Positions 3,001 to 9,000 of a stretch of DNA of 9,116 bases are shown piece after piece. The position numbers are program-made. Every line of letters begins with the position of its first letter. Positions within the stretch are counted from its first letter, which is position 1. Source of the DNA: a virus (taxonomy: Duplodnaviria; Heunggongvirae; Uroviricota; Caudoviricetes); the IMG/VR virus record IMGVR_UViG_2713896778_000019. The stretch is one strand, 5' to 3'.

Positions 3001-6000
3001 ATAATGCCAGTGCACAGCGGGAAGTCGCCCTGACACAGGGGCAGCGTTATGTGGATGCGCTTAACCAGGCACATACGGCAGAAATCATTACCGGCGTACA
3101 GAATATGGAACAGGAGCAGGACGTTCTTCAGCAACAGATGCTGTATACGTTACAACAGCGGATGAATGAAATGTCGCTCTGAAAACTCTGGCTTCAACTG
3201 AACCCCGTCATCGTACGGGGTTTTTTGTTTCCGGAGGTAAGCGTTCCGGGAGCGGTGCGCTTATTCGCGGGGGCAGCGATAAGCCTTATTTACTCAACCA
3301 TTCGGATCTGTCCGATAAACAGACCATGCGGAGTTATTTATGGATTTTGAATTTACGGGTGAAGAAACCCCGGAACAACTGGAAAAAATGCTGGAAGGAC
3401 TTGGGGATGTGGATATTGACAGTCACGCACAGGACGTCGTGACGGAAGATACCACGGAAAAACATGCGGATGAGGAAGCACAGACTCAGACGGGCGATAA
3501 CAATGTGGCACCGACGCCGGATGCCAGTGTGGAGCAGACGCAGGACGTGAAGGAGCCGGAAGCGAAGGGGGTGCTCACCCGCGACGGTAAACACGTCATT
3601 CCCTATGAAGTCCTTGAGGCTGAACGTTCCGGTAAGCAACGGGCCGAACAGGAAGCCGCACTTCTTCGTGGGCAGATAGCTGAAGAAAAACGCAGGGTGG
3701 AACTGCTGACGTCTCAGATCCACCAGGCCGGTATGAAGCCCACACCGTTACCGGAAAACGAAAAAATTTCTGATGAGCAGATTGCCCGTATCAGGGAGAT
3801 GTATCCGGAAATTGGTGACGCGGTGGCTTCGCTCATCCGTAAAAATAACTATCTCCAGTCCCGTGTTCAGCAATCAGCACAGCAGGCAGAAGGTAATGGT
3901 GGTGAGGATTTATCACCGGTTCTTGATGCGATGAATGCCGTGCCGGTGCTGAAAACGTGGCAGGAGTCCGATCCAGATCGCTTCTCGGTTGCTGTATCCA
4001 TCGACGGGAAGCTCCAGAATGACCCCGCATGGAAAGACAAAACGCTCACTGAACGTTTCGCTGAAGTGGCCCGTCGTACGCAGGTTGCTTTCGGTGAAGT
4101 CAGTGAGTCGTCTGCTGACAACAAGGCAGACAAAACGGATATCCGGAAAACGGCGGAAGAGAAAGTGAAGACCGCTGAACAGGAGCAGGCAGTACCTGCT
4201 TCCCCGTCAGATTTAGGCACCACGGCTTCCGTTGGAACCGGTGATAATTTTGAACGGTTACTTGGCGCTTCTCATTCAGAGGCAGAGGCGATTATGCGCG
4301 GTATGACGAATGCTGAAATAGACGCGCTTCTGGAGAAGCTCGGGTAACTTACTGAAGGAGAACTGAAGTAATGACGACTGTAACATCAGCCCAGGCGAAT
4401 AAGCTGTATCAGGTGGCGCTTTTTACCGCTGCCAACCGCAACCGCTCGATGGTCAATATCCTCACTGAACAGCAGGAAGCGCCAAAAGCGGTTTCGCCGG
4501 ACAAGAAAAGCACGAAGCAGACCAGCGCGGGTGCGCCGGTTGTACGGATCACTGACCTCAACAAACAGGCCGGTGATGAAGTGACGTTCAGCATCATGCA
4601 CAAACTCTCTAAACGTCCGACGATGGGGGATGAGCGCGTTGAAGGCCGTGGTGAAGACCTCAGCCATGCTGATTTTTCCCTGAAAATTAATCAGGGCCGT
4701 CACCTGGTGGATGCGGGCGGACGTATGAGCCAGCAGCGTACGAAGTTCAACCTGGCATCCTCTGCCAGAACGCTGCTGGGTACGTACTTTAACGACCTGC
4801 AGGACCAGTGTGCGATAGTGCATCTTGCCGGTGCCCGCGGTGATTTTGTTGCTGACGACACCATTCTGCCAACGGCAGATCACCCTGAATTCAAAAAAAT
4901 CATGATCAACGACGTACTGCCGCCGACGTATGACCGTCATTTTTTTGGTGGTGATGCGACGAGTTTTGAGCAGATCGAAGCGGCAGATATTTTTTCTATT
5001 GGCCTGGTGGACAATCTCTCCCTGTTCATTGACGAAATGGCGCATCCGTTACAGCCGGTTCGTCTGTCCGGTGATGAACTTCACGGAGAAGATCCATATT
5101 ACGTCCTGTACGTCACGCCGCGTCAGTGGAATGACTGGTACACCTCGACGTCCGGTAAGGACTGGAACCAGATGATGGTTCGTGCCGTGAACCGTGCAAA
5201 AGGTTTTAACCATCCGCTGTTCAAAGGTGAATGTGCGATGTGGCGGAATATCCTGGTTCGTAAGTATGCGGGTATGCCGATCCGTTTCTATCAGGGTTCA
5301 AAGGTTCTGGTATCAGAGAATAACCTGACGGCAACCACGAAAGAGGTCGCTGCTGCAACCAATATTGACCGCGCCATGTTACTGGGGGCTCAGGCGCTGG
5401 CAAATGCTTACGGTCAGAAGGCAGGCGGTCACTTCAACATGGTTGAGAAGAAAACGGATATGGATAACCGTACTGAGATAGCAATCAGCTGGATCAACGG
5501 TCTGAAAAAAATCCGTTTCCCCGAGAAGAGCGGCAAGATGCAGGATCACGGCGTGATTGCCGTTGATACCGCAGTGAAGCTCTGATTTTTCCTTTCCCCA
5601 TGCCGGGTTTTCGCCCGGCTTTTTCTGGAGTCATTAATTATGGCAAAGACTATTCTTGCCCCGTCACTGAGTGAACGGGTCTATACGGGCACGCACGGTA
5701 ATGAGTCGGTGGCAGAAGGCGTATTTACGGTGAATGCTGCGGAAGCGGACAGTGTTATTCATCTTCTCTCACTGCCAGTTGGCATCCGTATCAACTCACT
5801 CCAGCTGGTTTCAACGGGCGGTCTGGGTACTGCAACCGTCAGCATTAAGTCTGGTGAGCATGTTCTCATCGATAACAGCGAAGCTGTTTCTGCAAAATTT
5901 GCCAGATATGTGCCAGTGGAGCCGTACACCACACAGCGTGACGGAGAGCTGGTTACTGTCACCATTAAGACTGCCGCTGCAACCGGCACCCTGAATGTTC

Positions 6001-9000
6001 TGCTGCGTTATACCGTGGTGGGATACTGATTAAAACCTTCCGGCCCGCGTCATGCGGGCTTTTTATCCGGGGAATTTATATGAGCGAGAAAATTGCCGTT
6101 GTCTATATCGGCCCAAAACCCGTGAAAAAGGACACCATTACCGGAAGTCGCACGCTGTTCCCACGTCTTGAGCCGGTGCATGTTGACAGCGCGATGGCCT
6201 GGCAACTGCTGGGGTTTCCGGATGTCTGGGTTCGTCATGAAGAGCTTGATGATGTTCTGAAAAAGCAACAACAGAATGAGCAGTTGCGGCAGGCACAGCA
6301 GGCGCAGGAAAGAGTGCTTGCTGCGCTGGTAGAAGCGGAGAACAGTTTTGTTGTTTCTGTTAACGGGCAGGAGGTGGATTTAAGTAAGCTCACCTCAGCA
6401 CGGCTGGCGACGCTGTGTGAGGCAGAAGAGCTGGATATTCACAAAGACCCGAAAGAAACGGCTGAGGCATTCCGTATCCGGGTGCGTGAGGCATTTCGCC
6501 GTCGTGTTGCGGAGACTGAACAGCATGGCGGAACTGAGTGATTTTTTACCGTATGTCCGTCGTCATATCAGCGGTCCACTGAACATTATGATGACGGATG
6601 CTCTGTCAATGGCTGCCGTGGCATTCAGCCGCCAGTCGTTGGTGTGCCGTCGGGAGGTTACTGTTGTACCGGTGGCAGGAAAAGAAATCGTGCTTCCGTA
6701 TGACAAAGATGATGAGGAGTGCGTTCATATCATCCGTATCTCTGACGATAATCATGAGCTTTTTGTCGGTCGGGATGTGGATATCAGCTCCGGACGCTCC
6801 CTGCGATTTGCCTGTTCTCCCGGTGAGGTGAGCGTGCTTTATGCCGTCGCTCCGAAAGCCGGACGCAGCCAGATACCGGATGAACTCCTCACATGGCCTG
6901 AAGAAGTGGCTGCGGGGGCACTTGAGCGGTTGTTCATGCAGACTGGTGTTTCATGGTCGGACCCGTCACGCGCACAGTATTTTTCTGTGCAGTTTTCTGA
7001 GGGGCTCCGTCGGGCATATCGTCATACACTGGCGACAAGCCCGTACTCTTCATACCGCAACCCTGTACGCAGGCAGAGGTTTTACTGATGACGACGATTA
7101 CAGAAATCATCGGACGTGTGAATACACAACTGGTTGACCCGATGATGGTTCGCTGGCCCCTGCAGGAATTGTGCGATTATTACAATGATGCTGTGAGGGC
7201 AGTGATTCTGGCGAGACCGGATGCTGGCGCAAGCCTGGAAACAATCCGTTGTGTTCCAGGTGCACGTCAGGTTTTGCCTGATGGTGTAATACAGCTTCTT
7301 GACGTGATATGCCTCAGTGACGGTAGCGCGGTCAGACCATTATCCCGGGAGGTGCTGGATGCGCAGTATCCCGAGTGGCCCACAATGAAGGGCATTCCTG
7401 AATGTTTTATCAGCAACGACCTGTCCCCGCGCGTATTCTGGCTGTTTCCTGCCCCTGACAAAGAGATAAGTATTGATGCAGTGGTAAGCCGGATACCGGA
7501 GGCAGTGTATGTTCTGACGCAGGACGATGATACGCCAGTTCCACTGGAAGAGGCTTATGTTAACCCACTGGTGGACTGGATGTTGTTTCGTGCTTTCAGT
7601 AAGGATGCTGCCGGTGGCGCAGAATCGGGGCTGGCTGCGCAGCATTATCAGAGTTTTGTTGAGCAACTTGGGAGCAAACAGGGGGCAGACAGTGCATTGT
7701 CTGCCCGTAAAAAAGTGTTTAACGGAGGTGGAGTGTGAGTGTTGTTGTTTCGGGGACGCTGAAATCTCCTGATGGTGAGGCGATATCAGGAGCAAATATT
7801 ACCCTGACGGCGCTGACAGTTTCACCGGATGCGCTCAGCGGCACCAGTGCGTCGGCAGTGACCCGTGAAGGTGGATATTACGGAATGACGATGGATCCGG
7901 GGGAGTATGCGGTTTCGGTGACGGTGAAAGGGAAGACTGCTGTCTACGGACGTGTGCGTATTGAGGGGACCGAAAGTACGGTGACGCTCAATATGCTGTT
8001 ACGCCGCAGTCTTGTTGAGGTTAGCATACCCGGAGAACTGCTGACAGATTTCCGGCAGATACAGAATAATGTGGCTGATGACCTTGCCACTATTCGTCGC
8101 CTGAATGAAGACACGGCGACAAAAAACACTCAGGCCACACAGTCAAAAGAAAGTGCAGCAGCCAGTGCGAAGAGTGCATCTGACAGTGCAAAGACGGCAA
8201 CCAGCAGGGCGGCTGAAGCCGGACAAAAAGCGACTGATGCCACTGAGGCTGCGACCCGTGCAGTCACAGCAGCGGGGAATGCAGAGGAAAGCTCGACCCG
8301 TGCCGGAGAGTCTGAAAAAGCCGCCGGAGCTGATGCAGAAAAAGCCAGACAGCATGCTGAAAAGGCCAGGCTGGCGCAGGAGAGCGCCGGAGAGATCCTT
8401 AAGCGGGCAGAGGCTGCCACTGTCAGTGCTGAAGAGGCCAGACGTATGGCTGAGAATGCACGGGGGCCCCGGGGGCCTCAGGGAGAAACTGGTCCGAAGG
8501 GGGATGTCGGTCCTAAAGGCGAAACAGGTCCAGTGGGCCCTCAAGGGCCCGCAGGGCCGAAAGGTGAGCGTGGTGACGTTGGTGCTCAGGGGGCTGTAGG
8601 GCCCGCTGGTCCGCGTGGTGAGAAGGGCGAACAGGGGGAGCGAGGACCGCAGGGAATACCAGGCCTGAAGGGGGATACCGGAGAGCGGGGGCCTAAAGGG
8701 GACCAGGGGGATATGGGGCCAAAAGGCGAGAAAGGTGATCCGGGAGGTCCTGCAGGCCCGCAAGGTCCTAAAGGCGAACGAGGAGAAGCCGGACCACAGG
8801 GACCTCGTGGAGAGCCAGGTCCGGCAGGCAGCGCTGCAAATGTGGCTGATGCAACGACGGCACAGAAGGGAATTGTGCAGTTAAGCAGCGCAACGGACAG
8901 TGATGATGAAACGAAGGCTGCCACCCCGAAAGCGGTGAAAGCGGCAATGGATGTGGCAAATGAAGCGAAAACAAAGGCAGAAGAGGCTGCAGCAGGAGGT

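What the first reader, a model, noticed from the sequence alone, without database searches (positions are those of the whole stretch)
5586..6079. Small gene insulated by strong intrinsic terminators on both sides within the late operon
The 129-aa gene (5640-6029) sits between two textbook terminators (5602-5625 and 6043-6065) and has its own Shine-Dalgarno. Two readings are possible. It may be a highly expressed virion accessory such as a decoration protein; the terminator after the coat gene would set stoichiometry, and the beta-rich composition supports this. Or it may be a moron-like insertion. Terminators inside a late operon imply dependence on antitermination for downstream tail-gene expression.
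Basis: partly seen in the sequence, partly recalled or inferred. Interest (0 to 1): 0.4.

Follow-up and report, generated by a model that had tools for sequence, protein, structure and literature searches.

The report
Stx phage capsid cement protein gene
The small gene encodes the cement protein that clamps the head shell of Shiga-toxin phages together. A 2026 cryo-EM preprint has already shown this for a 99%-identical protein. The two flanking terminators are real and conserved, but they are an ordinary feature of this antitermination-driven late operon.

Summary
A 129-aa gene (5640-6029) with its own ribosome-binding site lies between two G+C-rich hairpin-plus-T-run terminators (5602-5626 and 6042-6066).

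The window is the head module of a short-tailed Stx2a-converting phage (Sepvirinae). The protein is 128/129 identical to phi24B vb_24B_31, which I map to gp67. A 2026 cryo-EM and proteomics preprint shows gp67 to be the trimeric cementing capsid protein of a T=9 head, at nine copies per asymmetric unit, equal to the coat protein.

My own AlphaFold model independently matches the cement proteins of phages GP4, Pam1 and KHP40 best. The gene follows the coat gene in every relative examined, has no composition anomaly and no promoter of its own, so it is not a moron. In Sp5 its in-frame deletion was not among the nine lethal ones.

Both terminators are kept in position across diverged clades, with different stem sequences. 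They are not special to this gene: the late operon carries six to eight such sites. The hairpin after the coat-cement pair is the most widely conserved, which fits a boundary between very abundant and 12-copy proteins, but that role is untested.

Verdict: ordinary and already explained.

The parts
3200..3229 (+). Intrinsic-terminator-like hairpin with T-run after the portal gene.
   Evidence: Searches show 9 pairs (GAACCCCGT...ACGGGGTTT) followed by TTTGTTT. One search gives z = -3.4 for the gap. The same site is kept in L006 and in phi24B.
4371..5585 (+). Major capsid protein gene (HK97 fold, GP4-like).
   Evidence: Pfam Phage_capsid_3 at 8e-89. phrog_334. The best solved homologue is the GP4 coat protein 8h89_A at E = 1.3e-38. 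It corresponds to Sp5 ORF62 and phi24B gp69.
5602..5626 (+). Terminator 1: hairpin 5602-5619 (7 pairs, loop TTTC) plus T-run 5620-5626.
   Evidence: It is kept in all enterobacterial clades, and 98% of cells are paired. Two of six pairs show changes on both sides, all from the Edwardsiella clade.
5627..5630 (+). Shine-Dalgarno GGAG of the cement protein gene, 9 nt before the ATG.
   Evidence: Read directly from the sequence. AGGAG or GGAG is kept at this place in every clade.
5640..6029 (+). Cementing capsid protein gene (129 aa). It corresponds to Sp5 ORF63/ECs1224, 933W L0117 and phi24B vb_24B_31 (gp67).
6042..6066 (+). Terminator 2: hairpin 6042-6060 (8 pairs, loop TCA) plus T-run.
   Evidence: It is kept with different stems in all clades. 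A hairpin at this place is found in 9 of 9 distant phages.
6080..6541 (+). Next gene (153 aa; Sp5 ORF64; phrog_482). It marks the start of the lower-abundance part of the module.
   Evidence: The start at 6080 is supported because the ATG at 6052, used as the start in the phi24B and P13374 annotations, is out of frame here owing to a 1-nt T indel.

Best explanation
The 129-aa gene encodes the cementing capsid protein of short-tailed Stx phages. It is a small all-beta (Ig-like, jelly-roll-like) protein with an N-terminal arm. It forms trimers that sit on the outside of the T=9 head wherever three capsomers meet, in one copy per coat protein (540 each), and so reinforces the shell.

The gene is a fixed partner of the coat gene in this capsid lineage and is not an inserted cargo gene.

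The two flanking hairpin-plus-T-run elements are genuine, conserved intrinsic terminators. They belong to a set of about six to eight that punctuate the long late operon. During lytic growth the operon is transcribed from PR' by Q-modified, terminator-resistant RNA polymerase, so these sites are read through.

Their likely roles are inferred, not shown. One is to stop unmodified polymerase in the lysogen. The other is to give the coat-cement mRNA segment a protected 3' end, so that these two proteins are made in far greater amounts than the 12-copy proteins encoded downstream.
For: Identity of the phage and the protein:
- The window is 100% identical to Stx2a phage records and 98.5% identical to 933W over 5300-6400.
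- The protein is 128/129 identical to phi24B vb_24B_31.
- Counting coding sequences in HM208303 puts vb_24B_31 at gp67. The count is checked at four other points: gp47 is the roughly 2800-aa protein, gp84 is the DUF1737 esterase, gp61 is the 645-aa fibre and gp72 is the portal.
- The preprint builds gp67 into 2.5-2.7 Å maps as trimers at three-capsomer junctions, with 9 coat and 9 cement subunits per asymmetric unit, anchored by His19. The window protein has His19.

- The AlphaFold2 model has pLDDT 84.9 and is all-beta, with a low-confidence N-arm.
- The Foldseek top four hits are the same class.
- The coat protein's best solved homologue is the GP4 coat protein, whose head has 540 coat and 540 cement copies (PMC9698820).

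Gene order:
- The order coat, small gene, ~154 aa, ~190 aa, SU10-type adaptor is kept in E. coli, Edwardsiella and metagenome loci.
- A small gene follows the coat gene in Aeromonas, Vibrio, Pseudomonas, Ralstonia, Burkholderia, Ochrobactrum, Klebsiella, Pseudoalteromonas and Erwinia phages.

Virion presence and dispensability:
- Mass spectrometry of CsCl-purified relatives detects a 'virion structural protein' (PMC12502783).
- The Sp5 ORF63 deletion is not among the nine non-infective mutants.

Terminators:
- Pair counts on terminator 1 are.
- phi24B has 8 strict sites, 6 of them intergenic.
- PR'/Q control of the late genes is described in PMC7547250.
Against: - The structural assignment rests on a preprint. 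Its PDB entries (9XLR and others) were not in the local PDB copies, so I could not compare my model with them.
- The gp67 to vb_24B_31 mapping is my own count; the paper does not state it.
- No sequence-level link to the GP4, Pam1 or KHP40 cement proteins was detectable. The relationship is by fold and gene position only.
- The mass-spectrometry paper has two genes annotated 'virion structural protein', so its text does not say which was seen.
- Nothing here measures termination, read-through or mRNA half-life.
- A terminator also precedes the scaffold-coat block (3200-3223). A simple 'terminators lower downstream expression' model would then predict less coat than portal, which is the wrong direction.
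- The covariation in terminator 1 comes from a single clade, that is, one evolutionary event.
Confidence: 0.9

Rival explanations
1. Moron-like insertion: an independently acquired cargo gene with its own transcription signals. It would be expressed from the prophage for the benefit of the lysogen, and the terminators would be its boundaries.
For: The gene is small and is followed by a terminator. It is dispensable for plaque formation in Sp5. True morons do exist in this operon, such as lom and bor in phi24B. A ParE toxin pair sits in the portal-scaffold gap of the Edwardsiella prophages.
Against: - No sigma-70-like promoter lies upstream; the gap holds only a terminator and a Shine-Dalgarno site.
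- G+C content is 0.50-0.52, the same as the neighbours.
- The gene is present in every one of 72 loci and at the same position in nine distant phages.
- The fold is that of capsid cement proteins.
- A 99%-identical protein has been built into the capsid map.
Confidence: 0.02
2. The hairpins act mainly as real attenuators during lytic growth. Even Q-modified polymerase would stop at each with some probability, giving a stepwise fall in transcription (coat > cement > downstream genes). This is analogous to the leaky T-phi terminator after the T7 coat gene.
For: Both sites have G+C-rich stems and runs of at least 5 T. The hairpin after the coat-cement pair is present in 9 of 9 distant phages, including virulent ones that have no Q system. 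The T7 parallel is from my own knowledge (Dunn and Studier 1983).
Against: - Coat and cement are needed 1:1, so a step between them has no obvious use.
- The terminator after the portal gene (3200-3223) would reduce coat relative to portal.
- Q-modified polymerase is known to ignore intrinsic terminators over long distances (established lambda biology; PMC7547250).
- In several distant relatives the hairpins lack a T-run. That fits an RNA-stability element better than a terminator.
Confidence: 0.25
3. The terminators serve mainly in the lysogen. They would block polymerase that has not been modified by Q (leak-through at tR', or promoters of IS elements and morons) from expressing head genes.
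For: Canonical T-runs are found in all temperate enterobacterial and Edwardsiella members. They are often missing in the distant phages, which I take to be mostly virulent on the basis of my own knowledge and have not checked. This window has an IS600 inserted just upstream in terL. The late region has six to eight such sites spread along it.
Against: The sample of phage lifestyles is small and unverified. Low-level expression of head proteins is not known to be harmful. This role does not exclude the others.
Confidence: 0.3

Closest known systems
phi24B gp67, the cementing capsid protein (bioRxiv 10.64898/2026.04.10.717836, April 2026)
   Same: It is 128/129 identical, including His19, and occupies the same gene position with the same two flanking hairpins. 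This is the same protein in a sister phage.
   Different: One residue differs (V75 here, A in phi24B). The preprint does not mention the terminators, the Sp5 deletion result or the conserved gene pair.
Ralstonia phage GP4 cement protein gp1 (PDB 8H89 chain J; PMC9698820)
   Different: No detectable sequence similarity. It is 157 aa rather than 129. According to the phi24B preprint, GP4 uses Asp rather than His for anchoring, and its N-arm does not wrap the neighbouring subunit.
Cyanophage Pam1 cement protein gp6 (7EEL chain H) and Helicobacter phage KHP30/KHP40 cement protein gp16 (7DN2, 7DOU)
   Different: Pam1 has a T=7 head. The hosts and genomes are unrelated. No sequence-level match was found.
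Lambda gpD (decoration protein)
   Same: It does the same job: trimers at threefold sites, equimolar with the coat protein, encoded next to the coat gene in a Q-dependent late operon (my own knowledge; PMC9698820).
   Different: The fold is different. gpD is required for packaging full-length genomes (my own knowledge), whereas the Sp5 ORF63 deletion still gave plaques and lysogens.
T7 T-phi terminator after coat gene 10
   Same: It is an intrinsic terminator placed right after the most abundant structural gene, in the middle of the late genes (my own knowledge).
   Different: T7 uses its own polymerase and has no antiterminator. T-phi is known to be leaky, whereas the efficiency here is unmeasured. 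Here there are two sites bracketing a second abundant gene.

Membership tests
Trimeric Ig-like/jelly-roll capsid cement proteins of GP4-like T=9 heads (phi24B gp67, GP4 gp1) | Small all-beta fold that superposes on solved cement proteins. | tested here: met
Trimeric Ig-like/jelly-roll capsid cement proteins of GP4-like T=9 heads (phi24B gp67, GP4 gp1) | Encoded next to a homologous HK97-fold coat gene. | tested here: met
   The coat gene lies 54 nt upstream. It matches the GP4 coat protein at E = 1.3e-38. The same gene pair is found in all relatives examined.
Trimeric Ig-like/jelly-roll capsid cement proteins of GP4-like T=9 heads (phi24B gp67, GP4 gp1) | Physically present on the capsid as trimers at three-capsomer junctions, equimolar with the coat protein. 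| not testable with these tools
   This is shown by cryo-EM for the 99%-identical phi24B protein. It has not been shown for this particular phage.
Trimeric Ig-like/jelly-roll capsid cement proteins of GP4-like T=9 heads (phi24B gp67, GP4 gp1) | Sequence homology to a solved cement protein. | tested here: not met
   Neither phmmer nor a profile search against PDB sequences found a cement protein. hhalign against the Cimandef (GP4-like) and Epa33 small proteins was not significant. hhalign against the Aeromonas phiARM81mr protein p53 gave probability 94%. The phi24B entries are not in the local PDB copy.
Moron (Hendrix/Juhala sense) | Own promoter upstream of the gene. | tested here: not met
   No sigma-70-like site lies in or near 5586-5639. 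This is a consensus scan only.
Moron (Hendrix/Juhala sense) | Terminator downstream. | tested here: met
   Site at 6042-6066.
Moron (Hendrix/Juhala sense) | Present in some relatives and absent in others, between genes that are otherwise adjacent. | tested here: not met
   The gene is present in all 72 loci analysed and in 189 phage records, against about 192 records with a close coat gene.
Moron (Hendrix/Juhala sense) | Base composition different from the flanking genes. | tested here: not met
   G+C content is 0.50-0.52 across 5400-6150, the same as its surroundings.
Rho-independent (intrinsic) terminator | G+C-rich hairpin immediately followed by a U-run, on the transcribed strand and in a non-coding gap. 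| tested here: met
   three of three strict sites are intergenic, against 0.2 expected from shuffles.
Rho-independent (intrinsic) terminator | Structure kept in evolution while the sequence changes. | tested here: met
   The stems differ between clades at both sites. For terminator 1, 98% of cells are paired and 2 of 6 pairs changed on both sides. The slid controls gave 22-54% paired. All the compensatory changes come from one clade.
Rho-independent (intrinsic) terminator | Releases transcripts in vivo or in vitro. | not testable with these tools
   Term-seq data for strain Sakai exist (GEO series cited in PMC7547250) but could not be read here.

The most novel reading that the evidence does not exclude
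The hairpin that closes the coat-cement gene pair may be a lineage-wide device. It would be kept from Q-dependent temperate Stx phages to virulent Ralstonia, Klebsiella and Erwinia phages, and it would set the roughly 45:1 protein ratio between shell and portal-vertex components. It would do this through mRNA 3'-end protection rather than through termination. In the temperate members the same element would have gained a U-run, so that it also silences head genes in the lysogen.
Probability: 0.3. Interest if true: 0.35.

Novelty: already known. Interest (0 to 1): 0.12.

Why it matters
The finding matters little on its own. It does tidy the annotation of a medically important phage group. The gene is labelled 'hypothetical' or 'virion structural protein' in about 190 Stx-phage records, and it can now be called the cementing capsid protein.

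It also links two papers that do not cite each other. The phi24B cement protein is Sp5 ORF63, and the deletion of ORF63 was not lethal. This implies that a T=9 head carrying a roughly 60-kb genome can be infective without its 540 cement subunits under laboratory conditions, unlike lambda without gpD.

The conserved terminators give a ready test case for how a Q-antiterminated operon still achieves very unequal protein outputs.

Tried and rejected
- Pfam gave nothing for the 129-aa protein.
- Rfam gave no match anywhere in the window at E ≤ 1. The hairpins are therefore not a known RNA family.
- Sequence and profile searches of the PDB returned only a marginal hit (E = 0.05, worsening to 1.3 with the profile) to an accessory beta-domain of a mannanase. 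I regard this as chance.
- The word-indexed homologue search reached only Escherichia and Edwardsiella. The exhaustive profile search found 72 cluster representatives of about 125-140 aa, but that library has no names or genomic context.
- hhalign against the GP4-like (Cimandef) and Hollowayvirus (Epa33) small proteins was not significant.
- A MAFFT alignment of terminator 2 across clades was out of register, so I did not run pair counts on it and report the stems by inspection instead.
- Literature searches for locus tags (ECs1224, L0117) and for 'terminator after the major capsid gene' gave nothing usable.
- The supplement of the mass-spectrometry paper holds only figure legends, so it could not settle which 'virion structural protein' was detected.
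- Folding energy alone does not distinguish terminator 2 from shuffles in its full gap (z = -0.9).
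Full report
**What the window is**

The region 5300-6400 is 100% identical to dozens of Stx2a-converting phage records. It is 98.5% identical to 933W, where the genes are L0116-L0118.

The gene order on the + strand is as follows:
- the right end of an IS600 inserted in the large terminase gene (1-515);
- the rest of terL (to 1038);
- the portal gene (1038-3182, P22_portal);
- a 335-aa gene (3340-4347);
- the coat gene (4371-5585, Pfam Phage_capsid_3, 8e-89);
- the 129-aa gene (5640-6029);
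- a 153-aa gene (6080-6541);
- a roughly 187-aa gene ending at 7088;
- an SU10-type adaptor gene (7088-7738);
- a collagen-like tail fibre gene.

This is the head module of the short-tailed Stx phages (Sepvirinae).

**The observation**

Folding energies are unremarkable against shuffles. The z-scores are -2.2 and -1.9 for the isolated hairpins, and -0.9 for the whole second gap. Position is decisive instead. Under a strict definition the + strand has exactly three sites, and all three sit in the three intergenic gaps of at least 50 nt. Intergenic sequence is 3.1% of the window. In 200 dinucleotide shuffles the mean was 0.2 sites and none reached three. The third site, 3200-3223 after the portal gene, was not part of the finding.

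**What the protein is**

Pfam is silent on the protein, but PHROGs places it in phrog_486, 'virion structural protein'.

An AlphaFold2 model built from 14 homologues is confident (pLDDT 84.9, pTM 0.81). It is all-beta and has a poorly predicted N-terminal arm.

- Foldseek against the PDB ranks four phage cement proteins first: KHP30, KHP40, GP4 and Pam1.
- The neighbouring coat protein's best solved relative is the GP4 coat protein at E = 1.3e-38.
- The GP4 head is T=9, with 540 coat and 540 cement subunits arranged as 180 trimers at quasi-threefold sites (PMC9698820).

A literature search then turned up a preprint of April 2026 on phi24B. It reports a T=9 head of about 74 nm. The coat protein is gp69. 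The cementing capsid protein is gp67, which forms trimers where three capsomers meet. gp67 has an N-arm plus a 4+4 Ig-like domain and is anchored by His19. There are nine coat and nine cement subunits per asymmetric unit.

The preprint uses gp numbers that are not in GenBank, so I counted coding sequences in HM208303. vb_24B_29 is gp69 and vb_24B_31 is gp67. The same count correctly lands on the 2811-aa gp47, the DUF1737 esterase gp84, the 645-aa fibre gp61 and the portal gp72.

The window protein is 128/129 identical to vb_24B_31 and has His19. The low-confidence N-arm in my monomer model fits an arm that becomes ordered only against a neighbouring subunit. The identity of the protein is therefore settled, and it was already known.

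**Not a moron**

- The G+C content of the gene equals that of its neighbours.
- No promoter-like site precedes it.
- In 72 loci from E. coli, Shigella, Edwardsiella and metagenomes, spanning 40-100% protein identity, the gene always follows the coat gene.
- In the phage collection, 189 records carry the gene, against about 192 with a close coat gene.
- Nine distant phages with a homologous coat protein all have a gene of 129-160 aa directly after it. Their hosts are Aeromonas, Vibrio, Pseudomonas, Ralstonia, Burkholderia, Ochrobactrum, Klebsiella, Pseudoalteromonas and Erwinia. In the GP4-like phage Cimandef this gene is 157 aa, the length of the GP4 cement protein.
- The exhaustive profile search found 72 cluster representatives, nearly all 125-140 aa.

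By contrast, a genuine moron-like insert does occur in the Edwardsiella prophages. It is a minus-strand ParE toxin pair in the portal-to-next-gene gap.

**Genetics**

Mondal et al. (PMC5155283) made in-frame deletions across Sp5. ORF63 (ECs1224, 129 aa) has its own deletion primers. It is not among the nine mutants that lost plaque formation and lysogenisation. It is also not among the mutants with reduced or raised titres.

The VT2-Sakai (Sp5) protein is 99.2% identical to the window protein. The cement protein is therefore dispensable for infectivity in the laboratory. The phi24B preprint does not cite this work.

**The terminators**

Both sites are kept in every clade, and the sequence changes:
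- Terminator 1 reads GCCGGGT/GCCCGGC in Stx phages. It reads GTCGGG/CCCGGC and GCCGGGT/ACCCGGC in intermediate clades, and GGCAGGC/GCCTGCC in Edwardsiella.
- Terminator 2 reads GGCCCGCG/TGCGGGCT, GGCCCTGCA/TGCGGGGCT, GCCCGC/GCGGGC and AGGCCC/GGGCCT in the corresponding clades.
- Each is always followed by a T-run and then the Shine-Dalgarno site of the next gene.

For terminator 1, 98% of cells are paired, against 22-54% when the partners are slid. Two of six pairs carry changes on both sides, though all of these come from one clade. The elements are therefore under selection.

They are not peculiar to this gene. The 32.7-kb phi24B late region has eight strict sites, six of them in intergenic gaps: after the portal, coat, cement, fibre-C, lom and vb_24B_43 genes.

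**How it probably works**

Late genes of Stx phages are transcribed from PR' only after Q makes the polymerase terminator-resistant (PMC7547250).

What the terminators add is inferred, not shown. A plain attenuation model fits poorly for two reasons. Coat and cement are needed 1:1. A terminator also precedes the coat block.

The comparative data point to the second site as the important one. A stable hairpin follows the cement gene in 9 of 9 distant phages. The hairpin between coat and cement is present in only 5 of 9, and three phages have gaps of just 12-19 nt. In several distant phages the hairpins lack T-runs.

I therefore favour a 3'-end hairpin that marks and protects the coat-cement message. 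This is the boundary between 540-copy and 12-copy products. In the temperate members the hairpin would also be a true terminator for unmodified polymerase. I rate each of these roles at roughly one in three, and they are not exclusive.

**Verdict**

The decoration-type reading is right, the moron reading is wrong, and the antitermination remark is consistent with known biology. The protein is already characterised in a sister phage, and the terminators are of a known kind. Interest is low.

Noticed in passing
window 1-1038: The first 515 bases are the right end of IS600 (IS3 family), 100% identical to many E. coli copies. It is inserted inside the large terminase gene; window 516 onward aligns to the interior of P13374 terL. 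The terminase gene is therefore split, and this prophage probably cannot package DNA without help.
   Followed up: partly
L002-L005 884-1406 (Edwardsiella tarda prophage and related metagenome contigs): A minus-strand ParE toxin gene and an 83-aa partner sit in the gap between the portal gene and the next head gene. This is a true moron-like insert, at the place where the window has only the terminator 3200-3223.
   Followed up: no
window about 6527-7088 and 7088-7738: Sp5 ORF65, which Mondal et al. proposed as the scaffold, corresponds to phi24B gp64, the inner adaptor ring. Sp5 ORF66 (SU10_adaptor) corresponds to gp62, the outer adaptor ring that carries the nozzle and fibres. Even so, its deletion was not among the nine lethal ones. 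The two studies do not cite each other, and the ORF66 result is unexplained.
   Followed up: partly
window 6052 versus 6080: The phi24B and P13374 annotations start the gene after the cement gene at an ATG inside the terminator 2 hairpin. In the window a 1-nt T indel (TTTAT versus TTAT) puts that ATG out of frame. The true start is therefore the ATG at 6080, which has a GGGGA ribosome-binding site.
   Followed up: yes
L075 (phi24B late region, 32.7 kb): There are eight strict + strand terminator-like sites. Six are intergenic: after the portal, coat, cement, fibre-C, lom and vb_24B_43 genes. One lies at the annotated start of the 2811-aa gene, which suggests that start is called too early.
   Followed up: partly
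alignment A1, residue 19: His19, which the phi24B preprint names as the residue anchoring the cement trimer to the shell, is Gln in the Edwardsiella clade. The invariant residues cluster in the N-arm (7-26) and the last strand (120-128), and the middle of the protein is variable.
   Followed up: no
L072 6924-7518, L076 1006-1200, L078 1070-1279: Several distant phages with this capsid module (Pseudomonas Epa33, Burkholderia DC1, Klebsiella SopranoGao) carry a CsrA-like regulator gene inside the head module, next to the coat gene.
   Followed up: no
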